Virus record (IMG/VR): IMGVR_UViG_3300045988_043012 | Location: 1 to 38,273 of that record | Direction: 5' to 3' (one strand) | DNA length: 38,273 nucleotides | Origin: a virus | In this document: piece by piece, positions 1,707-10,345 of the stretch | Layout: the number at the start of each line of letters is the position of its first letter | Position numbering within the stretch: the first letter of the stretch is position 1 | Translations under genes and position numbers: made by a program | Notes under the pieces: generated by a model | Seen by the model: the letters and a program-made list of their open reading frames with translations, nothing else | Database searches by the model: none | Told to the model about the DNA's origin: nothing

Positions 1707-1742
1707 GAAACCCGCAGATCGTTGAAAACAGCCAGAAAGAAT

Positions 1743-1769
1743 AGGGTTCAAATCCCTCCTTCCGCGCCA
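1743..1769 (+). other. tRNA 3'-end fragment, probable attP core
   Basis: GGGTTCAAATCCCTCCTTCCGCGCCA contains a T-loop (TTCAAAT), the T-stem 3' half, a 7-nt acceptor 3' strand, discriminator G and CCA. No matching tRNA 5' half lies upstream, so this is a fragment rather than a gene. Confidence 0.7.
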
Positions 1770-1773
1770 AATG

Positions 1774-1820
1774 AAAAACCGTTGGAATTGCTTGCAATGC
1801 TTGCAATTTCAACGGTTTTT
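1774..1820. terminator. Bidirectional rho-independent terminator
   Basis: Stem AAAAACCGTTG / CAACGGTTTTT encloses a GCTTGCAAT tandem. A-run on the left and T-run on the right. Sits between the int/attP region and the convergent minus-strand operon. Confidence 0.7.
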
Positions 1821-1901: not shown

Positions 1902-2393
1902 CTACTCCTTCACCTTGACGATGCCGTGGTAGTAGGCCGCCAACTTTTCCTTGGGGCCGGGGCCGTCCTTGTCAAACAAAAACGCCTGGGCCAGCTCCGC
2001 GAAGAACTCCGCCGTGCTGACACCGTAGTGGAGGGCCACGCTGCCGTAGTCTGAGAACATCATGTTCATGGTGATCCACCAGCACCACGGGGAGATCTTC
2101 TCCCAAGACAGGCCCATGCTCTCCGCCAGGGCAGTAGTCTGCTCCATGGGCCAGTGCGGGCCGGTGGTGCCGTCCTCGTTGACCATGTGAGCCGCCCACG
2201 CCTCCGCGTCGGCCTTGGTCAGCTCCCGTCCCGTGCAGATCGCCCCCTCTGCGCCCTTGAGCATGTTGAGGCATTCCACCATCGCCATGATCCCTTGCGC
2301 CGCGTTAGGGGTGGCAGGGTTCCGCATATACTCCCGGATGCTGTATTCCAGCTTGGGAATATACGTCTTGATTTGCTCATGCAGATTTTCCAT
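1902..2393 (-). CDS. Hypothetical protein (163 aa), last gene of the unknown operon
   Basis: Full-length ORF with ATG start, translationally overlapped by the upstream small ORF. Trp-rich motif WCWWITMNMMFSDYG. No family recognised. Confidence 0.75.
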   Translation of the reverse strand: MENLHEQIKTYIPKLEYSIREYMRNPATPNAAQGIMAMVECLNMLKGAEGAICTGRELTKADAEAWAAHMVNEDGTTGPHWPMEQTTALAESMGLSWEKISPWCWWITMNMMFSDYGSVALHYGVSTAEFFAELAQAFLFDKDGPGPKEKLAAYYHGIVKVKE

Positions 2394-2538
2394 GGTTGTC
2401 CTCCTCTCCGGCCGTCGAGGCCTTCATGGCCTCCTTGACCTTATCAATGGCAGCGTTGCCGATCTGGTTGCCGATGCTGCGGCCGGTGGGGGTGGCAGCC
2501 ATGACGCCCAGCAGCATCCCGATTAACATCTGCACCAT
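2377..2538 (-). CDS. Small membrane protein (53 aa)
   Basis: Not in the ORF track because it is under 60 aa. ATG at 2538 follows GGAGG with 6-nt spacing. Product MVQMLIGMLLGVMAATPTGRSIGNQ... has one hydrophobic helix. It overlaps the next start. Confidence 0.55.
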   Translation of the reverse strand: MVQMLIGMLLGVMAATPTGRSIGNQIGNAAIDKVKEAMKASTAGEEDNHGKSA

Positions 2539-2550
2539 GCCGCGCCTCCG

Positions 2551-2952
2551 TCAGATCCGCTGGACCCGCAGGGCCACGTTGTCAACGGTGGCCTCCACGC
2601 CGGACAGCACCAGAGTCAAAGCCGCACCAGCAGCGCAGCAGGGCTGACGCACCAGCGCCGTGAGATCGAGGTTGACCGTTCCGCTGGCCGCGCCGGTCGC
2701 GGTGGCGGTGGCGCCGGGGACGGCCACGCCGTCCTTGTAGAGGGTTACGGTGACAGCTCCGGCCGCCGTGAGGGTGGCGGTGATGGAGGCGTCCACGTCA
2801 TAGTAGCCGACGCCGGAGAGGTTAACCGCATTGCCGTTGAGGGCAATGTCGCAGCCGTACCGCCGAATCAGGCCGCCCAGAGGGATGACGCCGCCAACAG
2901 CCACCGCCGTGGGAGTCTGCATGGCCGCATACAAAGCAGATTTACAACTCAT
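2551..2952 (-). CDS. Hypothetical protein, possible BclA-C/C1q-TNF-like beta-sandwich
   Basis: 133 aa, rich in A/G/T/V with an alternating strand pattern (GYYDVDASITATLTAAGAVTVTLYKDGVAVPGATATA). The fold assignment is from memory only. Confidence 0.6.
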   Translation of the reverse strand: MSCKSALYAAMQTPTAVAVGGVIPLGGLIRRYGCDIALNGNAVNLSGVGYYDVDASITATLTAAGAVTVTLYKDGVAVPGATATATGAASGTVNLDLTALVRQPCCAAGAALTLVLSGVEATVDNVALRVQRI

Positions 2953-3048
2953 AGATCATTCTCCTTTCAAATTTAAAAGGCGGGGCACCGGCCCCGCCCA
3001 TTACCCGGCCAAAGGGGCCTAAACTGTTTCCGATGTGGAAAAAGTTGC

Positions 3049-3588
3049 TCAGATGTTGCCGCTGCCGTTGCAGCCGCAGGATGCGGGGATGATCTGGCCG
3101 CCGCAGGTGGACGCCACGCCGTACAGATTCGGCTTCGTCAGCATCCGGCCCTCGATGGCATCCAGCCGGCGGTTAAAGCCACAGCAGCAGTCGGAGATCT
3201 TCGCCGCCAGAGCGTCGGTCTGCTCCTTGGTGAAGATGCCGTTCTTGAGGCTCTGGTTCTCCATCTTGAGATCATAGATGGTCTCCTGGAGACGCTGCTC
3301 ATAGATCCGGCTGGCCTGAGAGGTGATGGCATCCGTGCTGGCGTTGATGGCCATACGGGTGGCATTGCTCTGCTGCTCGATAAGGTACTGGGTCCGGGCG
3401 GTGTCGGCGATCTCCTGCCGCTCGACCTCGCAGTTGCTCACCCGGTTGCAGCCCTCCTGCGGGGGATAGGGATTGTTGCCGCGATTCCAGCCCCAGCCGC
3501 CGCCGAAATTCCCGCCGAAAATGGCAAAAATTACGATAATGACAAAGAGGACTGCAATCCAGCTCATACCAGTGCTACGATCTTCCAT
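3049..3588 (-). CDS. Membrane-anchored coiled-coil protein with Cys-rich C-terminus
   Basis: 179 aa. N-terminal TM helix (WIAVLFVIIVIFAIFGG), Gly/Trp-rich stretch, coiled-coil core, and C-terminal CCCG and CGCNGSG motifs. Confidence 0.7.
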   Translation of the reverse strand: MEDRSTGMSWIAVLFVIIVIFAIFGGNFGGGWGWNRGNNPYPPQEGCNRVSNCEVERQEIADTARTQYLIEQQSNATRMAINASTDAITSQASRIYEQRLQETIYDLKMENQSLKNGIFTKEQTDALAAKISDCCCGFNRRLDAIEGRMLTKPNLYGVASTCGGQIIPASCGCNGSGNI

Positions 3589-3624
3589 GTGTTCGTGCTC
3601 CTTTCGTGTTTTTATTCCAACCAG

Positions 3625-3969
3625 CTATTTCAGCCGGGGGAATTTGGTGGAACCGCCCGTTTTCCCCTTCTGAGGGGTCTGGGAGCCGTTCTGTTCGCCG
3701 CCAAGGATCTTGTTGGCATCGGAACGCAAGGCCTCCGGTGTGGTCCCCAGAAGGCCGCACAGGGCCTTTGCCTGCATGGTCTTCCCGTAGCGGGCATACA
3801 GGCTGTTTGCGATATTGGGGTCAATGCCCAGCCGCCTGGCTGTGCTCTGTACACCCTCCAGCGTATCAGCCGTCCCGCTGATCGCCTGCTCCGCCTTCTG
3901 CACCGCGTTTTGCAGGTCGGCGCTGGGGAACATCTTCGACGCGGCCGCTATGATCTGTTTGAGATCCAT
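3625..3969 (-). CDS. Hypothetical protein (114 aa)
   Basis: ATG preceded by AAGGAG..GAAGGAGA. Helical, Lys/Gly-rich tail. Confidence 0.65.
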   Translation of the reverse strand: MDLKQIIAAASKMFPSADLQNAVQKAEQAISGTADTLEGVQSTARRLGIDPNIANSLYARYGKTMQAKALCGLLGTTPEALRSDANKILGGEQNGSQTPQKGKTGGSTKFPRLK

Positions 3970-4273
3970 TCTCCTTCAGCTCCTTTACCTGGGCCGACAG
4001 GCCCTTGATGATCTCGGCCATATCGCTCATGGCCGACTGCATCTCACCCATCAGCTCCTCCTGCGTCTTGGGCGGGGTGATGATGCCTAACTCCACCAGC
4101 TTGTCGTAATACTGCTGGGTGGTGCCCTCCAGCTCCGTGTAGGCCGCCGAGGTCTTGCCGATAAGCTGCTGACGGTTGCCGAAATAGTCCACCTGCCAGA
4201 TGTCCGCGCCGTCGATGGCGCACATCAGACAGCTGGAGCCCGTGTATCCTGCGATTGCAAATTGCTGATCCAT
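3866..4273 (-). CDS. Hypothetical protein (135 aa), first gene of the operon
   Basis: ATG at 4273 after GGAGGTG. The last ~35 codons overlap the next gene and look like out-of-frame GC-rich filler, so the true C-terminus is uncertain. Confidence 0.6.
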   Translation of the reverse strand: MDQQFAIAGYTGSSCLMCAIDGADIWQVDYFGNRQQLIGKTSAAYTELEGTTQQYYDKLVELGIITPPKTQEELMGEMQSAMSDMAEIIKGLSAQVKELKENGSQTDHSGRVEDVPQRRPAKRGAEGGAGDQRDG

Positions 4274-4321
4274 AGCGCACCTCCTTTTCCTATCCCAATG
4301 ATACAAAAAATACGGACAGCC

Positions 4322-4362
4322 AAACTGCCCGGAAACTGCCTGTATTCTGCCCTTAAACTGCC
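4322..4362 (-). promoter_or_regulatory. Four 11-bp-phased WWWCTGCC repeats upstream of the minus-strand operon
   Basis: AAACTGCC at 4322, AAACTGCC at 4333, ATTCTGCC at 4344 and AAACTGCC at 4355, an exact 11-bp period. A minus-strand -10-like TATCAT (4298-4303) lies downstream with no good -35. Confidence 0.6.
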
Positions 4363-4384
4363 CAAAAAATATTTTGAGAAATTC

Positions 4385-4424
4385 GGTTTAACCTATTGAC
4401 AATAGGTTAAACCTATGGTATATT
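4385..4424 (+). promoter_or_regulatory. SigA-type promoter overlapped by a 29-bp perfect palindrome (operator)
   Basis: TTGACA at 4396-4401, 17-nt spacer, TATATT at 4419-4424. The palindrome GGTTTAACCTATTG-A-CAATAGGTTAAACC spans 4385-4413 and is centred on the -35. Confidence 0.75.
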
Positions 4425-4456
4425 ATAGGTACAGTAAAGGAAAGGGGTACGCGAAA

Positions 4457-4687
4457 ATGTGGAAGGAAGGCAGCATCAAGGTCAACGGCGAGAGTTTTCA
4501 CTACTGGATGAAGCAATACGATGAAGGTTCTAAATGGGGAATTAATGGAGGTCGCATTTCCAAACTGATGCTCAAGCGAAACGGCGAAATTGTTTGCAAC
4601 TATGACAGAGGTTGGGACATAGAACCCGCCGACGAAAACACCCGTATTGCCACGGAGCATCTGATCCGCAGCGACAAAGGAGAATAA
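4457..4687 (+). CDS. Hypothetical small protein (76 aa)
   Basis: ATG at 4457 lies downstream of the predicted transcription start. The track start at 4415 lies inside the promoter. Product begins MWKEGSIKVNGESFHYWMKQYDEGSKWGINGGRISKL. Confidence 0.65.
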   Translation: MWKEGSIKVNGESFHYWMKQYDEGSKWGINGGRISKLMLKRNGEIVCNYDRGWDIEPADENTRIATEHLIRSDKGE

Positions 4688-4689
4688 AA

Positions 4690-4935
4690 ATGAAAACGAT
4701 CTATATCAAAGAAATCGGATTCGACGAGTTCTATAAGGTTAGCTATTCCATCCGGAAATCAAACAAGGGCTACCGCATCGCCCACCCGGAGGAAGTCACC
4801 GAAATTTCACGAAGTGACTACTACAAGGCCCCCGCCTCCGCGCGGACGTCTTACCGGTGTTTCCAGCGTGACCGCGATGTTTCTGAAATCGGGACTGCCT
4901 ACTTTCTTGACCTGCTGGAAGCGCAGGAGGGCTAA
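4690..4935 (+). CDS. Hypothetical small protein (81 aa)
   Basis: ATG at 4690 lies 2 nt after the previous stop, with a GGAGA purine run upstream. Product begins MKTIYIKEIGFDEFYK. Confidence 0.6.
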   Translation: MKTIYIKEIGFDEFYKVSYSIRKSNKGYRIAHPEEVTEISRSDYYKAPASARTSYRCFQRDRDVSEIGTAYFLDLLEAQEG

Positions 4936-4938
4936 GCA

Positions 4939-5115
4939 ATGCCGGATAGCGAAGCGAAACGCCAGTGGATGGCACAAAACACCACCTTTATCGGGCTGAA
5001 GCTGAACAACAACACCGATACCGATATCCTCGCCGCGCTGGAAGGCAAAGCCCGCCAGACGGAGATCAAGCGGCTAATACGCTTGGGATTGGAAAAGGAA
5101 GGACGAAGATCATGA
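4939..5115 (+). CDS. Ribbon-helix-helix-like small protein (58 aa)
   Basis: Not in the track. AGGAGGG precedes the ATG at 4939. Product MPDSEAKRQWMAQNTTFIGLKLNNNTDTDILAALEGKARQTEIKRLIRLGL has a strand-helix-helix pattern. ATGA overlap with the next gene. Confidence 0.55.
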   Translation: MPDSEAKRQWMAQNTTFIGLKLNNNTDTDILAALEGKARQTEIKRLIRLGLEKEGRRS

Positions 5116-5423
5116 GCAGAGTGAAAATGGTTTTGAAGTGTGAGCACTGTGGAAAAGAGTTTGAGCACATCCACACTTGCCGCAATTCCACCGAGGCGGG
5201 ATCTTATGAGGTCTGGGCGCGGGAAAACATCACCACCTGCCCGGACTGCTACGCGGCGCAGAAGCGTGCGCACCAGCTGGACGCCGTTTCCGGTTACATT
5301 TCCAACTTCAGCGAACAGCACCCCCTCCCTAAGATCACCGGCGTTTCTGAAAAGCAGATCGCCTACGCTTCCAGCCTGCGGGAAAAATTCATCCGCGACA
5401 ATTTGATGAAGCTGATAGCTTGA
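5112..5423 (+). CDS. Zinc-ribbon protein (103 aa), possibly the 5' part of a frameshifted gene
   Basis: CEHCG...CPDC motifs. ATGA-coupled start. The reading frame appears to continue in the +1 frame after 5423. Confidence 0.6.
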   Translation: MSRVKMVLKCEHCGKEFEHIHTCRNSTEAGSYEVWARENITTCPDCYAAQKRAHQLDAVSGYISNFSEQHPLPKITGVSEKQIAYASSLREKFIRDNLMKLIA

Positions 5424-5493
5424 TGTAAACCGTTTCTTTGAAATTGCGGACAGGATTAAGCCGGAAAACTGCGATGAATCTGGGAGGGAACTC

Positions 5494-5664
5494 ATGCGCA
5501 AGGCCGCAGCCGATGCCGGGAAGCCCTTTGAAATCTGGTTTACGGCTTACCGTGCGGATCGTCTTTGGCGTTATTTCAGCCTGATCTATGCCGCCGACGT
5601 GGCGAAAATCGAAACCATTTTCACGGAATCCAGCGCATCCAAGATTATCGACGCATTGAAATAA
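5494..5664 (+). CDS. Hypothetical 56-aa ORF, possibly the 3' part of a frameshifted gene
   Basis: GGGAGGG precedes the ATG at 5494. The same frame is open from 5431 (LDVNRFFEIADRIKPEN...). Confidence 0.45.
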   Translation: MRKAAADAGKPFEIWFTAYRADRLWRYFSLIYAADVAKIETIFTESSASKIIDALK

Positions 5665-5683
5665 AAAACAGGAGGAAAAGCAC

Positions 5684-5989
5684 ATGATCGCACATCTTTA
5701 CAAGATCCCTTCCACCTTCCGGAATGTTCCCGACGCGGTAAAGATCCGGGAGAAACCGTACGAGAATTTCCCCGGCACATGGCTTCACGCTAACTTACAT
5801 CTGCCTGATGGCCTCCGCGTTGCGGATTCCGAGTATGGCGAGGGCGCTTTCATCACGGAAGCTGGCGAGGTGATCTTTGAGGCGTACGCGGACCCCGAAC
5901 AGATCAGCGGAAACGATCTGCAAGGCCGCGTTACCGTGCGGGACTCCGCCGGGAAATACCTAATTGATACCGTTGTCATCTGGAATTAA
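5684..5989 (+). CDS. Hypothetical protein (101 aa)
   Basis: AGGAGG RBS. ORF ends just before a strong terminator. Confidence 0.7.
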   Translation: MIAHLYKIPSTFRNVPDAVKIREKPYENFPGTWLHANLHLPDGLRVADSEYGEGAFITEAGEVIFEAYADPEQISGNDLQGRVTVRDSAGKYLIDTVVIWN

Positions 5990-6006
5990 GCCTGCAAACC
6001 TAAACG

Positions 6007-6038
6007 AAAAGCCGTGTCCGATTCGGACACGGCTTTTT
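6007..6038 (+). terminator. Rho-independent terminator built on palindrome copy 1
   Basis: AAAAGCCGTGTCCGATTCGGACACGGCTTTTT, a perfect stem followed by a T-run. Confidence 0.85.
6016..6028. repeat. GTCCGAWTCGGAC palindrome copy 1
   Basis: GTGTCCGATTCGGACAC, inside the terminator. Confidence 0.95.
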
Positions 6039-6069
6039 GAAAATATTTTGCTTTTTTTGCTTTTCTCTC

Positions 6070-6098
6070 TTGACACACCACCAAATTGGTGGTATTAT
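6070..6098 (+). promoter_or_regulatory. SigA-type promoter with a 17-bp palindrome in the spacer
   Basis: TTGACA at 6070-6075, 17-nt spacer, TGgTATTAT with -10 at 6093-6098. The spacer contains ACCACCAA-A-TTGGTGGT. Confidence 0.7.
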
Positions 6099-6136
6099 AA
6101 TAACAACAAGAGGGCACAGCCCAGGAGGAAAATAAA

Positions 6137-6409
6137 ATGAAAATTACTGATGGAAAGAAAACCGTAGAGATCAAGATCCAGCGCTGGAATGGTTCCGGAT
6201 ACGATCCGGACTGGAGCCGCGATTATTTTACCGCCGGTTCCCTGCCCTATGATGAGGAAACTGATACTTATACCGTTGAGGATGTTGATTATTGCATCGA
6301 AATGGCCAACAACAGCACCTGCGAAGATGGCGCTTGCATCAAATATAACGAGGACGGAGTCCTTGTCCCTGACGAAGATATGGTCGTCTTTGTTGATGAA
6401 CTGAATTAA
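6137..6409 (+). CDS. Highly acidic small protein (90 aa)
   Basis: AGGAGG RBS. By my count about 22 D/E versus 7 K/R. Contains DEETDTYTVEDVDYCIEM and VPDEDMVVFVDELN. Confidence 0.75.
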   Translation: MKITDGKKTVEIKIQRWNGSGYDPDWSRDYFTAGSLPYDEETDTYTVEDVDYCIEMANNSTCEDGACIKYNEDGVLVPDEDMVVFVDELN

Positions 6410-6422
6410 GGAGGGATATACC

Positions 6423-6761
6423 ATGACGGACAAACAGTTTAGCACCCTTTTGGGTGGCGCACTGGCGGACCAAGATCGGGATATGTACGTATCAGACTGG
6501 GCACTATCTGACATCTGGGGAAATCCGGAAGGCGCTGACATCCCGGATGATCGGATCCAGGCCTTGGGAGCGTTGTGGGATGTGGCTCATATTACGATCC
6601 GCGAGATCAGGGCAGCCACTGGCTTGTCTCAGGTTGCTTTTGCCCAGCGCTTCTGTATCCCGCGCCGAACGGTGGAGAATTGGGAATCCGGGGCAAGCAC
6701 TTGTCCGGACTATCTGCGGATTTTGTTGGCGCAAGCCGTAGGGCTGTATACGCGGAGCTAA
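6423..6761 (+). CDS. HTH (XRE/antitoxin-like) DNA-binding protein
   Basis: AAGGAGGG RBS. C-terminal HTH IREIRAATGLSQVAFAQRFCIPRRTVENWESG. Confidence 0.75.
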   Translation: MTDKQFSTLLGGALADQDRDMYVSDWALSDIWGNPEGADIPDDRIQALGALWDVAHITIREIRAATGLSQVAFAQRFCIPRRTVENWESGASTCPDYLRILLAQAVGLYTRS

Positions 6762-6774
6762 ATATATAAAAAGA

Positions 6775-6802
6775 GCCGTGTCCGAATCGGACACGGCTTT
6801 TT
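6775..6802. terminator. Bidirectional terminator built on palindrome copy 2
   Basis: GCCGTGTCCGAATCGGACACGGC stem, flanked by an A-rich run on the left and TTTTTG on the right. Sits between convergent genes. Confidence 0.85.
6780..6792. repeat. GTCCGAWTCGGAC palindrome copy 2
   Basis: GTGTCCGAATCGGACAC, inside the terminator. Confidence 0.95.
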
Positions 6803-6804
6803 GT

Positions 6805-7041
6805 TTACCCCTGCATATCATCCGCGATCTTGGCGTAGGCACGCCGCCGGATCTTGGCAAGGCCGTCTACGCTGACGTGGAGCAGCGCCGCCGCCTGTAG
6901 GCAGCTCTGGCCGTGGACGTCCACCGCCAGCACCGCCGCCTCCTCGTCAGGCGGCAAGCCTACCAGCCGGACGGCCTGCGCCGCCCGGGCCGGGGCCATC
7001 GATGACAACAGCGCCCGGATCTCTCGGTTTGTTTTTTCCAT
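6805..7041 (-). CDS. Sigma-70 region-4-like small HTH protein
   Basis: 78 aa. LQAAALLHVSVDGLAKIRRRAYAKI resembles a region 4.2 HTH. Weak RBS. A much stronger SD plus ATG at 7093 is out of frame (see findings). Confidence 0.5.
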   Translation of the reverse strand: MEKTNREIRALLSSMAPARAAQAVRLVGLPPDEEAAVLAVDVHGQSCLQAAALLHVSVDGLAKIRRRAYAKIADDMQG

Positions 7042-7114
7042 GGGTTTTCCAGACTTGCAGAGCGCGGATTAACCGCGTGGATGTTGTTGCCATCTTCTGG
7101 CCCTCCTTTCGGTT

Positions 7115-7510
7115 TTATCCTTTCCAGTCAGCCTTGGCCTCTCTCACGTCGATATGACAAAAGCTGTCATAAACCCCCACGCCGCCCCAGTCTGGCATGA
7201 TCGACCGGGCGAAGGCTGCCACCGTTGCCGGTGTCTGACCCTTGATGGAAATATCCGCCGCCATGCCATAGCAATGCTGGCTGTGGGCCGCGCCGTTTAC
7301 CTTCGCGTTGTGCTGCGGCGTCCGGTAGGCGCTGTGGATGACCACCGGAGCGCAAAAATGGGAACGAATGGTTTCCAGCACCATCACCAGCCGGGGAGCC
7401 ACCAAAACAGCGTCACTGCCGTCTCCACACGCAAACTCCCGGACCCGGAAATGGGCGGAGAGCTGCTTGCCCCCGGAGGCGGCTTTGCTGTAAGCGTGGA
7501 TCTCAACCAT
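7115..7510 (-). CDS. Peptidase M15-family (D-Ala-D-Ala carboxypeptidase-like) endolysin
   Basis: 131 aa. Zn-ligand pattern SAYRTPQHN...AAHSQHCYGMAADI...HIDV. Confidence 0.8.
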   Translation of the reverse strand: MVEIHAYSKAASGGKQLSAHFRVREFACGDGSDAVLVAPRLVMVLETIRSHFCAPVVIHSAYRTPQHNAKVNGAAHSQHCYGMAADISIKGQTPATVAAFARSIMPDWGGVGVYDSFCHIDVREAKADWKG

Positions 7511-8186
7511 GGTTATCCTCCCAGATCTGATACAGCGCCCGGACCATGTCGGCGCGGGTCACAGTCTCTCCGGCGTTGGCGTCCGTCAGCAGGCCGTGAG
7601 CCTTGCCCCATACGAGGGCTTGATCTTCCGCCTTGACCGCCGACCGCTCCCAGAACAGCAGCAGCGTGGGCACCTTCCGGGAGCTGGTTACCTTCCCGCC
7701 GGGGAAAATGCCCTGCGTGGAGCCGCCGCCGTCCAGCATGAGTGCGTCCACCACGCCCAGCCCCAGCAGCTTGTTCTGGAGCTGCTCACGGGTCAGGCTG
7801 GTCTTGTCGCACCACAGCACCACCTTGCCGTTGGCCAGCCAGCCCACCGCCGTCCGGGCGGCAGACCGGGCCACGTCCGGCGTCAGCTCTCGGTACAGTT
7901 TGGAGCCGCCCTTGAGGATCGGGACGCCGGAGAGGAAGGATCCTCCCCGGTCCGTCAGCATCTTGGGGACCCCGTCACTGCCGATAGACACGCCCCAGTC
8001 CTGGTATTTGTCCCGGCTGATGATCTTACCGTCGATCACCGTCCAGCCTACCGGCTGAAACTTGCCGTTGAACAGGTAGCCGTTGATGATGTGGGTGCAG
8101 CCGGTCTTGGCCTTGATCTGCGCCGGGGTCAGCTTGCCGGTGTTGTGGTAGATCTGCGCTCTGGCGCAGTCAAACGTATCAACCAT
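7503..8186 (-). CDS. Phosphodiester glycosidase (NAGPA/DUF2233)-family protein, lysis module
   Basis: RTAVGWLANGKVVLW...LGVVDALMLDGGGSTQ motif. ATG at 8186 overlaps the upstream stop. The track N-terminal extension is unlikely. Confidence 0.7.
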   Translation of the reverse strand: MVDTFDCARAQIYHNTGKLTPAQIKAKTGCTHIINGYLFNGKFQPVGWTVIDGKIISRDKYQDWGVSIGSDGVPKMLTDRGGSFLSGVPILKGGSKLYRELTPDVARSAARTAVGWLANGKVVLWCDKTSLTREQLQNKLLGLGVVDALMLDGGGSTQGIFPGGKVTSSRKVPTLLLFWERSAVKAEDQALVWGKAHGLLTDANAGETVTRADMVRALYQIWEDNHG

Positions 8187-8505
8187 GGCGCACACGGGAA
8201 GCCTTGATGAAGTAGCCGTCCTCGTCATAAGTCACCTTATAGGTGGCTCCGACGATCCGCTGGATCTGGACGGTGCCCGCCAGATCCTCCCGGCGACGGG
8301 TATCCAGCGTCTGGGGGAGCGGCTCCGGATCCTTCTCGGCGGGGATGAAGCCTTCCCGCATTTCGTCCTCGGTCCAGTTGGCCACGCCGCCGTCCGGATT
8401 CAGGTGGAAGTTGGCACCCGCCGCCTTCAGTTCGGCGTTGATGGTCTCCACGGCCTTGCCGTTCTTCTTGCCCTCGTTGATGATGTTCTCGTAGATCTTG
8501 TTCAT
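8179..8505 (-). CDS. Hypothetical protein (108 aa)
   Basis: ATG at 8505 after AAAGGGGAC. No family recognised. Confidence 0.6.
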   Translation of the reverse strand: MNKIYENIINEGKKNGKAVETINAELKAAGANFHLNPDGGVANWTEDEMREGFIPAEKDPEPLPQTLDTRRREDLAGTVQIQRIVGATYKVTYDEDGYFIKASRVRHG

Positions 8506-8547
8506 AATATGTCCCCTTTCAAATTTCGGTTGATTATTCAACCGGTT

Positions 8548-8739
8548 TCAACTGTTCTTGTCCTCGTTGACCCGCTGGGTGCCGAAATAGAATGCGATGA
8601 CCGTGGTAAAGATGGTCAAAAATTCCGTCCCGGAAATGTCACCCCGCAGAGCCAGCACCGCGAAGATCACCGTCAGGGTGATGGTCACGAGGCTTTTCAC
8701 CGCAAGCAGATTGCCCAGCCGTTTCTTGATGTTTTCCAT
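8548..8739 (-). CDS. Putative holin
   Basis: 63 aa, two hydrophobic helices, charged C-terminus, located in the lysis cassette. Confidence 0.65.
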   Translation of the reverse strand: MENIKKRLGNLLAVKSLVTITLTVIFAVLALRGDISGTEFLTIFTTVIAFYFGTQRVNEDKNS

Positions 8740-9292: not shown

Positions 9293-10345
9293 TCAAGAAT
9301 TTCCGAGATAAATTATTGTGATAACTTGCGCGCCCTTCACATGGATTTTACCAGTTTCACAAGTTATCGTAACTGCAGAATTCGCAATCACAGGAATGAC
9401 TACTTGACCATTTGGCAATACCATCCATATACCGAGCTGCTCGTAATAAGTTGAGATAACAAGATATGTCCTCCAAGAGTTTGGTATCTCGAATGTTTTT
9501 TCCACAGTAGTCCCAGTCCCAGTGTAAACATTAAAGTATGGGAACTTATCTGCTGGCGCAGCATAAATATTTTCTCTCGCCTGCTGTTGCTGTGCACTAG
9601 TAAGATTTTGCGGTGTATAAAGCACTGCAGCCCGCACGGTATCCGCTCCGATGTTCTCCCGCGCCTGCGCCTTCTGCTCGTCGGTGAGGCTCTGGGCCGC
9701 GTCGTAGCGGATAAAGTTGCTGGAGCCGCCCACGGGGCCTTCTGGGCCTTGCTTGCCCTCCGGCCCCTGCTTTCCTTCGGGGCCTTGGATGCCCTGCTTG
9801 CCCTGCGGGCCTTGCAGGTTGCCGTTGGCCACCCACTTGCCGTGGACAGAATCCCAGATGTAGATGTTGTACGGAGGCGCGGTGCCCACGCCGTACACGT
9901 CCCCAGCCTTGGGATTAGGAACGGCGGCCTTGAGGGCGTCCAGCGTATCAAAGTAGCCCAGAATTGCGAAGCTGGACCCGGCCTCGCCGGGATCGCCCTG
10001 GTCGCCCTTTTTGCCGGGAGGGCCAATGGGGCCTTTGATGGACGTCAGCGTCGTCAGCTTGAAGGCGTACACCCAGTTGGCCGTGCCCTTGAGGAACACC
10101 TTGCCGTAGTCCGCGGAGGCCGTGATGTCCGGCAAAATCAGGACGAACTGGCCGCGCTGGACGTCCGTACCGGTGAAGTCCTGGTTCATCTCGGTCACGC
10201 TCTTGTACTCCTTGGTGATGCCCACCGGCACACCGGCGGAGGCCAGCCGCGCGTCGATCTCCTCGCCGGAGTAGGCAGATGTGTAGTAATCTTGCAGCTT
10301 GGCGAAAATTTCTTCCAAGACTGCGACTCTCTGTTCAATCGTCAT
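9293..10345 (-). CDS. Collagen-repeat tail fibre / receptor-binding protein
   Basis: 350 aa. G-X-Y runs are encoded at 9977-10033 and 9728-9811. Repeated LT..Q..ARENI motif. The distal ~110 codons are AT-rich. Confidence 0.8.
   Translation of the reverse strand: MTIEQRVAVLEEIFAKLQDYYTSAYSGEEIDARLASAGVPVGITKEYKSVTEMNQDFTGTDVQRGQFVLILPDITASADYGKVFLKGTANWVYAFKLTTLTSIKGPIGPPGKKGDQGDPGEAGSSFAILGYFDTLDALKAAVPNPKAGDVYGVGTAPPYNIYIWDSVHGKWVANGNLQGPQGKQGIQGPEGKQGPEGKQGPEGPVGGSSNFIRYDAAQSLTDEQKAQARENIGADTVRAAVLYTPQNLTSAQQQQARENIYAAPADKFPYFNVYTGTGTTVEKTFEIPNSWRTYLVISTYYEQLGIWMVLPNGQVVIPVIANSAVTITCETGKIHVKGAQVITIIYLGNS

What the first reader, a model, noticed from the sequence alone, without database searches (positions are those of the whole stretch)
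1902..4273. Six-gene minus-strand operon of unknown function between attP and the accessory operons
The six ORFs are tightly packed, and several overlap. They encode a 135-aa protein, a 114-aa helical protein and a 179-aa membrane-anchored coiled-coil protein with Gly/Trp-rich and Cys-rich ends. They also encode a 133-aa A/G/T/V-rich beta protein reminiscent of BclA-C/C1q-TNF jelly rolls, a 53-aa TM peptide and a 163-aa Trp-rich protein. None resembles a standard phage structural, lysis or replication function. The block has its own regulatory array and is insulated by bidirectional terminators. A membrane anchor, a possible trimeric surface-type fold and Cys-rich tails suggest an envelope or surface-associated complex. 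This could be lysogenic conversion, exclusion or a defence module, and may be an undescribed system.
Basis: inference. Interest (0 to 1): 0.65.

Follow-up and report, generated by a model that had tools for sequence, protein, structure and literature searches.

The report
Conserved accessory gene cassette of gut phages
The six genes are real and form one copy of a gene cassette of unknown function that recurs in many gut phages; it encodes a membrane-anchored helical protein and a small protein folded like anthrax spore-surface proteins, and phages can do without it.

Summary
The six minus-strand ORFs exist as described and all evolve under purifying selection (dN/dS 0.01-0.38).

They are not private to this phage. 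In 86 of 86 related loci with enough flank, the order is small sigma-region-4-like HTH gene, A (or A'), B (or B'), C, D. The tail (E, F) is swappable.

- D is predicted with high confidence (pLDDT 93.7) as a standalone BclA-CTD / BxpB-ExsFA / C1q-TNF jelly roll.
- C has an N-terminal TM helix, a Gly/aromatic-rich linker, a helix of about 95 residues, and invariant CX5C, CCC and C-terminal CxC motifs.
- C and F (DUF7841) are also linked in a separate cassette of Bacteroides and crAss-like phages (78 of 80 loci).

The cassette has a promoter-like -10 fused to the upstream terminator, and an internal terminator between C and D. A canonical holin-endolysin set lies elsewhere. The homologous core is missing from ΦCP26F and four other plaque-forming C. 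perfringens phages, close relatives of carriers such as CPD1.

No library or searchable paper assigns a function.

Best reading: an undescribed accessory, membrane-tethered assembly, with a C stalk or anchor and a D trimeric head. Its role (exclusion or defence, virion accessory, lysis accessory) is unresolved.

The parts
3866..4273 (-). Gene A, 135 aa. Small N-terminal globular part, a C-terminal helix and a basic disordered tail. First gene of the cassette.
   Evidence: ORF with RBS. dN/dS 0.04-0.28. Always first after the promoter in window-type loci. In other loci it is replaced by A' (phrog_21718), which has no detectable homology to it.
3625..3969 (-). Gene B, 114 aa, helical by eye (no prediction run), with a basic tail. 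It overlaps A by 104 nt in the +1 frame.
   Evidence: dN/dS 0.08-0.12. It has a positional counterpart B' (73-78 aa, phrog_22984) in variant cassettes. The A/B overlap is in the +1 frame in all five cassette types checked by hand from the coordinates.
3049..3588 (-). Gene C, 179 aa. Bitopic membrane protein with a TM helix at about 10-24, a Gly/Trp-rich linker, one long helix at about 53-148, and invariant C47/C53 (CX5C), C135/C136 (with C134 nearly invariant, the CCC motif) and a C-terminal CxC. It is the signature gene of the cassette.
   Evidence: Alignment of 41 homologues. AF2 secondary structure, but low confidence (pLDDT 48). phrog_16490. Homologous to the C proteins of C. perfringens, crAss-like and Bacteroides phages (hhalign 99.3%). 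127 clusters at 50% identity.
2978..2999 (-). Intrinsic terminator or attenuator hairpin between C and D: GGGCGGGGCCGGTGCCCCGCC followed by a T-run.
   Evidence: The same three-hairpin intergenic layout, with compensatory changes, is kept in L019, L064, L075, L080 and L084. A terminator-like hairpin also follows C' in phage CPD1.
2551..2952 (-). Gene D, 133 aa. Standalone C1q/TNF-type jelly roll (like BclA CTD and BxpB/ExsFA), with an invariant N-terminal MSCKSA(L/I)Y and conserved C105(C106).
   Evidence: Pfam BclA_C E=2.4e-5, below cut-off; a homologue reaches 33.9 bits. AF2 pLDDT 93.7. Foldseek matches: BclA CTD E=4e-10 at TM about 0.8, BxpB TMq 0.86, ExsFA, F-BclA. Standalone viral homologues at TM 0.9-0.95. 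Conservation profile over 188 sequences.
2377..2538 (-). Gene E, 53 aa, with an N-terminal hydrophobic segment and an amphipathic, charged tail. Variable accessory member.
   Evidence: dN/dS 0.10-0.38. Present in window-type and L019-type cassettes, absent from others.
1902..2393 (-). Gene F, 163 aa, DUF7841. An accessory member here, but linked to C-family genes in Bacteroides-type phages as well.
   Evidence: Pfam DUF7841 3e-19. In 47 related loci it is replaced by a rubrerythrin-like protein of about 100 aa. DUF7841 sits in the same cassette as a C homologue in Bacteroides phage C3_41T2LP (5e-16) and in 78 of 80 IMG/VR loci.
4298..4362 (-). Cassette control region: four GGCAG(T/A)(T/A)T repeats at 11-bp phasing (4325-4362), a hairpin at 4313-4331 with a T-run, and a -10-like TATCAT (4298-4303) 24 nt before the ATG of A.
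   Evidence: 0 expected by chance. The hairpin + T-run + GTAynAT element is kept upstream of A/A' in all cassette types compared. The GGCAG repeats occur only in the window type and close relatives. Promoter activity is inferred, not shown.
6805..7041 (-). 78-aa sigma-70 region-4-like HTH protein (sig78), the candidate dedicated regulator. It follows the M15 endolysin gene with no terminator between them.
   Evidence: Pfam Sigma70_r4_2 1.2e-4, below cut-off. It lies immediately upstream of A/A' in 85 of 86 loci; the one exception is a truncated contig. Sequence context. A regulatory role is inference from synteny.
6774..6798 (-). Terminator after sig78. It ends the lysis operon and insulates the cassette.
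   Evidence: -20.7 kcal/mol, z = -5.7. In relatives without the + strand insertion this hairpin directly abuts the GGCAG array.
1773..1820 (.). Bidirectional terminator between F (-) and the integrase gene (+).
   Evidence: -24.6 and -30.2 kcal/mol, z = -4.3 and -5.5, with A-run and T-run flanks.

Best explanation
The six genes are one version of a self-contained accessory cassette that circulates among phages of gut anaerobes.

Shown:
- The conserved core is the sigma-region-4-like HTH gene plus A, B, C and D. E and F form an exchangeable tail.
- C is a membrane-anchored protein with a long helix and invariant Cys motifs.
- D is predicted with high confidence to be a standalone BclA-CTD/BxpB-like C1q/TNF jelly roll.
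- The phage has a complete holin-endolysin set elsewhere.
- Plaque-forming relatives of cassette-bearing C. perfringens phages lack the core.

Inferred:
- C oligomerises into a helical stalk tethered to the cytoplasmic membrane.
- D forms a trimer, as all its structural relatives do. It docks on the Cys-bearing end of C through its invariant N-terminal MSCKSA(L/I)Y peptide and its CC loop. This would resemble BxpB, which is fixed by its Cys-bearing N-terminus next to Cys-rich basal-layer proteins, and the BclA head, which sits on a stalk.
- A and B, small helical proteins with basic tails that are translationally coupled, act as adaptors or assembly factors.
- F (DUF7841) is a further partner of C.
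- Transcription starts at the cassette's own promoter, fused to the terminator of the lysis operon, probably under control of sig78. The hairpin after C sets the ratio of A-C to D-F.
- Because A, B, D and F appear to have no signal sequences, the assembly most likely forms on the cytoplasmic face of the membrane.
- Its role is accessory. The most likely role is interference with other phages at the membrane (superinfection exclusion or defence) or another modification of the infected or lysogenic cell's envelope. It is not virion building, lysis or replication.
For: - Real genes: dN/dS 0.01-0.38.
- Unit character: sig-A/A'-B/B'-C-D in 86 of 86 assessable loci from IMG/VR, GTDB genomes and ENA.
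- C-family and DUF7841 are again neighbours in Bacteroides-type phages, in 78 of 80 loci.
- D fold: pLDDT 93.7, with top PDB matches BclA CTD, F-BclA, ExsFA and BxpB at TM 0.78-0.86.
- BxpB and ExsF are standalone trimers. They bind partner peptides in inter-subunit clefts and carry their only Cys in the N-terminal tail (PMC10470788; PMC12357932).
- D's N-terminal eight residues are the least variable part over 188 sequences.
- C anatomy.
- Own control elements.
- Lysis is covered elsewhere: holin 8548-8739 and two endolysins.
- Dispensable: CPD1 and ΦCP26F are collinear at 90-97% identity on both sides of a swapped segment. That segment holds A'B'C'D' in CPD1 only. ΦCP39-O, ΦCP13O, ΦCP34O and ΦCP9O also lack a C homologue.
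- No match to known defence, structural or lysis families.
Against: - No interaction among the six proteins was tested, and no complex prediction was possible with these tools.
- The C model is poor (pLDDT 48), and its oligomeric state and coiled-coil character are assumed.
- The orientation of C is undetermined, because flanking charges show no bias.
- If sig78 is made only from the late lysis transcript and is required for the promoter, the cassette would be expressed very late. That fits a post-lysis or virion-related role better than exclusion in lysogens.
- The gene after C in C. perfringens and Bacteroides phages is not detectably homologous to D. The 'stalk plus C1q-like head' picture may therefore hold only for the Oscillospiraceae/Mogibacterium branch.
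- PADLOC finds nothing, and no phenotype data exist.
Confidence: 0.35

Rival explanations
1. Virion accessory. The proteins assemble in the cytoplasm late in infection and decorate the capsid or tail as a dispensable fibre. D would be a C1q/TNF-type lectin or receptor-binding head, C/A a coiled-coil shaft, and disulfides would lock the structure after release.
For: - C1q/TNF-like heads on stalks are common in phage fibres. BFVD hits include collagen-repeat proteins, a C1q-domain protein of a haloarchaeal tailed virus, and fibritin.
- The pattern of a conserved 'shaft' gene (C) with exchangeable neighbours (D vs unrelated Cys-bearing beta-rich proteins) resembles fibre modules.
- sig78 is co-oriented with, and not insulated from, the late lysis genes.
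- Depositors annotated C homologues as 'spike protein' or 'viral fiber', though only from remote similarity.
- Dispensable decoration proteins are known from general knowledge (phi29 head fibre, T4 Hoc).
Against: - C has a 15-17-residue, very hydrophobic segment (mean KD 3.1). That is expected to insert in the membrane rather than sit in a soluble fibre.
- The cassette lies behind the lysis genes and a strong terminator, away from head and tail genes.
- In C. perfringens phages it sits among early-type genes (antirepressor, Erf, SSB).
Confidence: 0.2
2. Lysis accessory. C acts like an i-spanin or other membrane-active late protein (N-terminal TM, coiled coil, Cys-linked oligomer). It would help the last step of release or set lysis timing, with D, A and B as partners.
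For: - C has the i-spanin architecture: an N-terminal TM segment, a long helix and conserved Cys. The comparison with lambda Rz rests on general knowledge.
- In temperate Clostridia phages the cassette directly follows holin and endolysin. In crAss-like cr116_1 it lies about 1 kb after them.
Against: - The hosts of this phage are monoderm Oscillospiraceae, so there is no outer membrane to fuse.
- No lipoprotein partner is apparent (read by eye; no lipobox scan was run).
- Plaque-forming relatives lack the core.
- Bacteroides phage C3_41T2LP carries it among recombination genes.
Confidence: 0.12
3. Spore-surface conversion. In spore-forming Clostridia the cassette would be expressed in the mother cell and add exosporium-like proteins (a BxpB/BclA-like trimer plus Cys-rich partners) to the spore.
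For: - All top PDB matches of D are exosporium proteins.
- The partners are Cys-rich. A' has a Tyr/Gly/Gln/Asn-rich N-terminus like coat proteins.
- The regulator is small and GerE-sized.
- The alternative tail genes look rubrerythrin/ferritin-like, but only weakly (E 0.009).
Against: - The -10-like element looks sigma-A-like (TAynAT), not sigma-E or sigma-K-like.
- No exosporium leader peptide is found in any phage protein scanned.
- C and DUF7841 also occur in phages of non-sporulating Bacteroides.
- No Pfam or NCBIfam sporulation family is hit.
Confidence: 0.08
4. Not a system. The six are unrelated small morons that happen to be neighbours at the variable end of the prophage.
For: - E and F are swappable.
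- A and B can be replaced by non-homologous genes.
- Other cargo has been inserted between sig78 and A in this very window.
Against: - The order sig-A/A'-B/B'-C-D is invariant in 86 of 86 loci, down to 41% identity.
- C + DUF7841 linkage is seen independently in a distant phage group.
- Reading frames overlap, and the intergenic hairpins are conserved with compensatory changes.
Confidence: 0.05

Closest known systems
BclA C-terminal domain and BxpB/ExsFA of the Bacillus cereus-group exosporium (C1q/TNF superfamily; PDB 1WCK, 8D02, 7R5I, 9H3D)
   Same: D has the same 10-11-strand jelly roll (TM 0.78-0.86). Like BxpB/ExsFA it is a standalone domain of about 130-165 aa with a Cys in the N-terminal tail, and it is encoded next to a Cys-rich partner. 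These proteins are assembled in the cytoplasm without secretion signals.
   Different: - Only 13-17% identity, and the Pfam BclA_C score is below the curated cut-off.
- No collagen stalk, and no exosporium leader peptide on any partner.
- Encoded by a phage of uncultured Oscillospiraceae, not by a sporulation locus.
- D has extra conserved Cys (C34, C105/106).
- Trimer formation was not tested.
Morons, i.e. accessory cassettes of temperate phages such as the HK97 gp15 superinfection-exclusion gene (general knowledge, not tested here)
   Same: It has its own promoter-like element and terminators, sits at module boundaries and next to attP, is present or absent among close relatives, and includes a membrane-anchored product.
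   Different: - Five to seven genes kept in fixed order rather than one or two.
- Base composition is not atypical.
- Relatives of the cassette are also present in phages with no integrase nearby.
- No exclusion phenotype is known.
i-spanin Rz of lambda-like phages (general knowledge)
   Same: N-terminal TM anchor, long helical ectodomain-like part, conserved Cys that could link subunits, and a position near the lysis genes.
   Different: The hosts here are monoderm, there is no o-spanin lipoprotein partner and no embedded or overlapping partner gene, and the cassette is dispensable. No sequence similarity was detected.
TNF-family ligands (type II membrane protein: TM anchor, stalk, trimeric jelly-roll head)
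   Same: The overall design would match if C (anchor plus stalk) and D (head) associate.
   Different: Here the design would be split over two polypeptides. Association and orientation are untested, and there is no evolutionary link beyond the superfamily fold.
Endospore appendage subunits (S-ENA DUF3992, F-ENA DUF4183; PMC12357932)
   Same: Small beta-sandwich proteins with a conserved N-terminal peptide (Cys-bearing in S-ENA, a hydrophobic hook in F-ENA) that docks on the next unit; S-ENA fibres are additionally stabilised by disulfides.
   Different: D matches neither family in Pfam. Its fold matches the BclA/ExsF class, not the ENA subunits. There is no evidence of fibre formation.

Membership tests
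BclA_C (PF18573) / C1q-TNF superfamily, for D | Pfam profile match at or above the gathering score (38 bits) | tested here: not met
   24.7 bits, E=2.4e-5, covering profile positions 4-126 of 128. A 59%-identical homologue scores 33.9 bits, E=3.3e-8. The match is significant but below the curated cut-off.
BclA_C (PF18573) / C1q-TNF superfamily, for D | Ten- to eleven-strand jelly roll superposable on BclA CTD and C1q heads | tested here: met
   AF2 pLDDT 93.7, with 11 strands. Foldseek against 1WCK, 3TYJ and 2Z5W gives E about 1e-9 to 4e-10 and TM 0.78-0.81. C1q and TNF ligands follow in the ranking.
BclA_C (PF18573) / C1q-TNF superfamily, for D | Homotrimer | not testable with these tools
   Only monomer prediction was available.
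BclA proper | N-terminal exosporium leader plus a collagen-like GXY stalk preceding the head | tested here: not met
   D is 133 aa and the fold starts at residue 6. There are no GXY repeats.
BxpB/ExsFA | Standalone TNF-like domain | tested here: met
   TMq 0.86 to 8D02 and 0.78-0.82 to 7R5I/7R1M. D is a single-domain protein.
BxpB/ExsFA | Detectable sequence relationship to ExsFA/BxpB | tested here: not met
   No PDB sequence hit with a single sequence or a profile. Identity in the structural alignments is 14-16%.
BxpB/ExsFA | A partner protein carrying an exosporium leader peptide (TIGR03720) that docks on the trimer | tested here: not met
   NCBIfam scans of the six proteins, the collagen-like fibre and the variant partners gave no such hit.
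DUF7841 (PF25223), for F | Pfam profile match above the gathering score | tested here: met
   69.8 bits against a cut-off of 25.2, E=3e-19.
Moron / accessory cassette | Own promoter upstream | tested here: inconclusive
   A conserved -10-like GTAynAT follows a terminator upstream of A/A' in all cassette types. There is no -35, and the consensus scan reports no minus-strand promoter there. No expression data are available.
Moron / accessory cassette | Terminator downstream | tested here: met
   Bidirectional hairpin at 1773-1820.
Moron / accessory cassette | Present in some phages and absent from close relatives | tested here: met
   CPD1 versus ΦCP26F: the flanks are 90-97% identical and the core is only in CPD1. 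Within Crassvirales, 18 of the 35 matching records are crAss-type 'uncultured phage cr*' genomes.
Moron / accessory cassette | Base composition different from the rest of the phage | tested here: not met
   GC is 0.59-0.63 across 2001-4000, within the range of the late region.
Spanin (i-spanin) | Gram-negative host and an o-spanin lipoprotein partner gene | tested here: not met
   The hosts are uncultured Oscillospiraceae/Oscillibacter. None of the neighbouring products shows a lipoprotein signal on reading the sequences.
Holin | The only small membrane protein next to the endolysin, and required for lysis | tested here: not met
   A canonical 63-aa, two-TM holin candidate sits at 8548-8739, upstream of the endolysins. 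No holin family was hit by C or E.
Known anti-phage defence systems (PADLOC-DB 2.0) | Match of any component to a defence-system model | tested here: not met
   The only hit is a chance-level ZorA coiled-coil hit, E=0.037. A second weak hit in NCBIfam (E=0.0045, 15 bits against a cut-off of 190) is similar.
Endospore appendages (DUF3992, DUF4183) | Pfam match to either family | tested here: not met
   No hit for D or for the positional counterparts in CPD1 and crAss-like phages.

The most novel reading that the evidence does not exclude
The cassette is an undescribed multi-protein, membrane-associated phage system. It would be built around a TM-helix-CCC protein (the C family), DUF7841 and a Cys-bearing beta-rich protein (here a BxpB/BclA-like trimer), with its own small sigma-region-4-like regulator. 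It would be exchanged among phages of Clostridia, Bacteroidota and possibly methanogenic archaea. Its job would be one not yet catalogued for phages, for example a new class of phage-versus-phage exclusion or defence, or a redox- or metal-dependent device specific to strict anaerobes.
Probability: 0.3. Interest if true: 0.8.

Novelty: new variant of a known kind. Interest (0 to 1): 0.58.

Why it matters
- If the cassette is a working unit, it is a common component of human-gut phages that has never been named. This one variant has hundreds to more than a thousand near-identical copies in public data. Homologous C + DUF7841 cassettes occur in 45-108 kb Bacteroides and crAss-like phages.
- It would extend the BclA/BxpB type of C1q-like protein, so far known from spore surfaces, to phage biology.
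- It gives DUF7841 and four 'unknown' PHROG families a genomic context.
- It offers a natural test pair of cultured C. perfringens phages with and without the core.
- If it turns out to be an exclusion or defence device, it would matter for phage competition in the gut and for choosing therapeutic C. perfringens phages.

Tried and rejected
- **Sequence searches of PDB.** Searches with D, F, C and a D profile gave only chance hits.
- **NCBIfam and PADLOC.** Nothing usable. The weak ZorA, LcrG, SurA_N and DivIVA hits are coiled-coil or composition noise.
- **F-ENA and S-ENA idea for D.** Rejected. F-ENA is DUF4183, and D's fold matches the BclA/ExsF class instead.
- **A vs A', D vs the gene after C in CPD1 and crAss-like phages, b180 vs D, cc170 vs A/A'.** No profile-profile similarity. 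These are called positional counterparts only.
- **Structure of C.** The model is too poor (pLDDT 48, pTM 0.16) to search with, so the third fold search was not spent on it.
- **Positive-inside analysis of C.** No charge bias, so topology is left open.
- **Activator-site repeats as a general feature.** Found only in the window type, L082 and L019 types, not in L080, L084, L085 or L089.
- **Giant proteins hit by the C profile.** P0348, inspected, is a low-complexity coiled-coil repeat protein, i.e. spurious; P0394 and P0464 were not inspected but hit the same repeated helical stretch.
- **Alignment-based scan of IMG/VR with all C variants.** Failed for lack of a conserved stretch. It was replaced by a Bacteroides-type alignment.
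- **Programmed frameshift at the A/B overlap.** Considered and dropped. The overlap shrinks to 8 nt in the AT-rich CPD1, so the long overlap looks like GC-driven ORF extension.
- **Literature.** Nothing on DUF7841, the PHROG numbers, or virion proteomics of carrier C. perfringens phages.

Full report
**1. What is there**

The window is a temperate siphovirus genome of about 38 kb. It carries:
- an integrase (636-1670, + strand);
- an attP-like tRNA 3' fragment (1741-1770);
- head, tail and lysis genes on the minus strand.

The six ORFs of the finding lie on the minus strand exactly as described:

| Gene | Coordinates | Length |
|---|---|---|
| A | 3866-4273 | 135 aa |
| B | 3625-3969 | 114 aa |
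| C | 3049-3588 | 179 aa |
| D | 2551-2952 | 133 aa |
| E | 2377-2538 | 53 aa |
| F | 1902-2393 | 163 aa |

Each has a Shine-Dalgarno sequence. A and B overlap by 104 nt, and E and F by 17 nt.

They are real genes. Against orthologues at 65-99% amino-acid identity, every one shows dN/dS of 0.01-0.38. Five of the six exact sequences are already in public data, in 90%-identity clusters of 254-1301 members, mostly on 36-40 kb contigs from human-gut samples.

**2. Not lysis, not structure**

A normal lysis set sits upstream:
- a 63-aa two-TM holin candidate (8548-8739);
- a NAGPA-like glycosidase (7503-8228);
- an M15 peptidase (7115-7510).

Next comes a 78-aa sigma-70 region-4-like HTH protein, sig78 (6805-7041). 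It is followed by a strong terminator (6774-6798).

None of the six proteins matches a structural, lysis, replication or defence family in Pfam, PHROGs, NCBIfam or PADLOC. The three exceptions are:
- F = DUF7841 (3e-19);
- C = phrog_16490, 'unknown function' (3.9e-9);
- D = BclA_C, below the curated cut-off (24.7 vs 38 bits, E=2.4e-5).

**3.

I collected 80 IMG/VR loci by searching with D, 5 loci from GTDB genomes, and 3 ENA contigs. Local HMMs built for every component gave these results:
- All 86 loci with enough upstream sequence show (A or A')-(B or B')-C-D.
- 85 of them have the sig78 homologue directly in front. The one exception is a truncated contig.

This includes a prophage in a Mogibacterium MAG, where D is only 41% identical. 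There the order is holin, amidase, lysin, HTH, A', B', C', D, prophage end.

The tail varies:

| Tail after D | Loci |
|---|---|
| E + a rubrerythrin-like protein of about 100 aa | 47 |
| E + F (the window type) | 18 |
| rubrerythrin/ferritin-like + a 95-130-aa helical protein | about 10 |
| F alone | a few |
| nothing | a few |

A' carries a Tyr/Gly/Pro/Gln-rich N-terminus, a small beta domain and a helix (phrog_21718). B' is 73-78 aa and Met/Gln-rich (phrog_22984). A' shows no detectable homology to A; B vs B' was not tested. Both occupy the same positions, with the same +1-frame overlap.

In this window, sig78 and A are separated by about 2.4 kb of + strand cargo genes. These were inserted exactly between the sig78 terminator and the promoter region of A. 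Most relatives lack that insertion. The hosts are uncultured Oscillospiraceae/Oscillibacter.

**4. The cassette reaches much further**

*C. perfringens phages.* tblastn with C variants finds homologues in plaque-isolated phages: CPD1, XP41-N3, CPQ4, vB_CpeS-17DYC, HMD-PC1 and PMQ04. In CPD1 the order is:
- 036 (A');
- 037 (B');
- 038 (an inserted HNH endonuclease);
- 039 (C');
- 040 (a 125-aa beta-rich protein starting MTCNRRCNCCN);
- 041;
- 042 and 043 (the helical and ferritin-like tail genes).

The closely related ΦCP26F is 90-97% identical on both sides. It carries a different 1.4-kb segment where CPD1 has KilA + A'B'C'D'. ΦCP39-O, ΦCP13O, ΦCP34O and ΦCP9O also lack a C homologue. The core is therefore dispensable for a plaque-forming phage.

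*Bacteroides and crAss-like phages.* C homologues also occur in 18 crAss-like genomes, in Bacteroides phage C3_41T2LP, and in viruses assigned to Methanomassiliicoccales. They share:
- the same TM plus Gly/aromatic linker;
- the CCC motif followed by a similar A-I-D..N-Y-E/N stretch;
- a C-terminal CxC.

Profile-profile comparison of the Bacteroides-type and Clostridial C families gives 99.3% probability, E=3e-20.

In 78 of 80 Bacteroides-type IMG/VR loci the order is C, a 180-aa beta-rich 'CC' protein, a 170-aa beta-plus-coiled-coil protein, sometimes an acidic 75-aa protein, DUF7841, then a 131-aa protein. The DUF7841 member scores 5e-16 in Pfam.

Two of the window's six genes, C and F, are therefore linked in two very distant phage groups. 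That is hard to explain unless they work together.

*Family size.* An all-against-library HMM search with the short C family finds 127 clusters at 50% identity. The hits in giant repeat proteins look spurious; the one inspected, P0348, is a coiled-coil repeat protein.

**5. The proteins**

*D.*
- With a 23-sequence alignment, AlphaFold2 gives pLDDT 93.7, pTM 0.86 and 11 strands.
- The best PDB matches are BclA CTD (E=4e-10, TM about 0.8), the F-BclA head, ExsFA and BxpB (TMq 0.86), and the ExsF-F-Anchor complex. C1q heads and TNF ligands follow.
- In BFVD the best matches are standalone 130-148-aa proteins of gut phage MAGs of all three tail morphotypes, at TM 0.85-0.95 and 20-34% identity.
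- Across 188 distinct D sequences, the N-terminal MSCKSA(L/I)Y is the least variable part (the first seven residues invariant). Cys105 is invariant in the 23-sequence alignment.
- BxpB/ExsF are standalone trimers. They carry their only cysteines in the N-terminal tail, lie next to Cys-rich basal-layer proteins, and bind partner peptides in the clefts between subunits (PMC10470788; PMC12357932).
- No exosporium leader peptide was found in any phage protein scanned.

*C.*
- It has a very hydrophobic segment of 15-17 residues.
- It has invariant C47/C53, the CCC motif (C135/C136 invariant, C134 nearly so) and P168, plus a nearly invariant C-terminal CxC.
- AF2 predicts a TM helix (10-24) and one helix from 53 to 148, but with low confidence (pLDDT 48). 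That would be expected for an obligate oligomer, but it proves nothing.
- Flanking charges do not tell its orientation.

*F.* It is mostly helical by eye. Its conserved motifs are M..(S/A)DY and L.D.DG, and there is no obvious catalytic set.

**6. Regulation**

Upstream of A or A', in every cassette type, a terminator hairpin and T-run are fused to a -10-like GTAynAT about 25 nt before the start codon. In the window this is TATCAT at 4298-4303.

The window type adds four GGCAG(T/A)(T/A)T repeats at 11-bp phasing (4325-4362). They are unique in the window, with 0 expected by chance. Similar short repeats occur in only some other types.

Between C and D lies a canonical intrinsic terminator (2978-2999), within a three-hairpin intergenic region kept with compensatory changes in the Oscillospiraceae phages. 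A comparable hairpin follows C' in CPD1.

A bidirectional terminator (1773-1820) closes the cassette.

sig78 is not insulated from the endolysin gene. If it activates the cassette promoter, which I infer only from its invariant synteny, expression would be very late.

**7. Interpretation**

*Firm:*
- It is a conserved, mobile, dispensable cassette.
- D is predicted with high confidence to be a BclA/BxpB-type jelly roll.
- C is a membrane-anchored protein with a long helix and Cys motifs.

*Inferred:*
- C forms a membrane-tethered stalk.
- D docks on C as a trimeric head through the Cys-bearing ends.
- A and B are adaptors.
- F is a partner of C.
- The assembly forms on the cytoplasmic side, because A, B, D and F appear to lack signal sequences.
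- The role is accessory and membrane-level, with phage exclusion or defence as the most likely job (confidence about 0.35).

*Rivals:*

| Rival | Confidence |
|---|---|
| Dispensable virion fibre or decoration | 0.2 |
| Lysis accessory of i-spanin-like design | 0.12 |
| Spore-surface conversion | 0.08 |
| No functional unit at all | 0.05 |

The late position of sig78, and the exchangeable gene after C, keep the virion rival alive. The hydrophobic anchor and the position away from head and tail genes argue against it.

**8. Novelty**

None of the families has a described function. A full-text search finds no paper on DUF7841 or the PHROG numbers, and no proteomics for carrier phages.

I file it as a new variant of a known kind: a phage accessory ('moron-type') cassette that contains a new standalone member of the C1q/TNF-BclA fold class. 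I give about 0.3 probability that it is a truly new kind of multi-protein phage system.

Noticed in passing
window 1741-1770 (+): The sequence GGGTTCAAATCCCTCCTTCCGCGCCA is the 3' end (T-arm, acceptor stem, CCA) of a tRNA, but ARAGORN finds no whole tRNA. It is probably the attP core, so the phage would integrate into a tRNA gene. It lies between the integrase and gene F.
   Followed up: partly
window 4400-6800 (+ strand genes): A block of + strand cargo genes is inserted exactly between the sig78 terminator and the cassette promoter. It holds DUF7678 (4415-4687), a Zn-ribbon-like ORF (4965-5423), an HTH protein (6423-6761) and others. It is absent or shorter in most relatives. The same hairpin, AGCCGTGTCCGA(A/T)TCGGACACGGCT, occurs twice (6005-6039 and 6774-6798), which may mark the recombination joints.
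   Followed up: partly
window 4385-4424: A perfect 14-nt palindrome (GGTTTAACCTATTG/CAATAGGTTAAACC) overlaps a near-consensus + strand promoter (TTGACA-17-TATATT with TG). It looks like an operator-controlled promoter for the DUF7678 cargo operon, divergent from gene A.
   Followed up: no
window 7041-7110 (-): A strong RBS (GAAAGGAGGG) and an ATG at 7093 open a 48-codon ORF out of frame with sig78. The ATG of sig78 itself (7041) has only a weak RBS. This could be an upstream ORF or translational coupling.
   Followed up: no
window 7115-8739 (-): The lysis cassette contains two different wall hydrolases, a NAGPA-like phosphodiester glycosidase (7503-8228) and an M15 peptidase (7115-7510), overlapping by 8 nt. 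A 120-aa ORF (8179-8541) and a 63-aa two-TM holin candidate (8548-8739) precede them.
   Followed up: partly
window 9293-10345 (-): A 350-aa tail-fibre-like protein with collagen GXY repeats. Its C-terminal part is not D-like and it has no exosporium leader peptide.
   Followed up: partly
L087 (Clostridium phage CPD1) 5182-5805: An HNH homing-endonuclease-like gene (CPD1_038) is inserted between B' and C' of the cassette. It is absent from the other five carrier C. perfringens phages.
   Followed up: partly
L095 (Caudoviricetes sp. vir215, host assigned to Methanomassiliicoccales) 2152-4759: The C-family gene (phrog_16490) lies just downstream of a reverse transcriptase next to a tail gene. 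This may be a diversity-generating retroelement neighbourhood.
   Followed up: no
L096-L175 (IMG/VR, Bacteroides-type phages of 45-108 kb): A second, distantly related cassette is kept in 78 of 80 loci. Its order is C-family, a 180-aa beta-rich 'CC' protein, a 170-aa beta-plus-coiled-coil protein, sometimes an acidic 75-aa protein, DUF7841, then a 131-aa protein.
   Followed up: partly
window 2953-3048 and L019, L064, L075, L080, L084 C-D spacers: The C-D spacer keeps three successive hairpins with compensatory base changes, not just a terminator. The first two, including AGGCCC-N5-GGCC, have no obvious role.
   Followed up: partly
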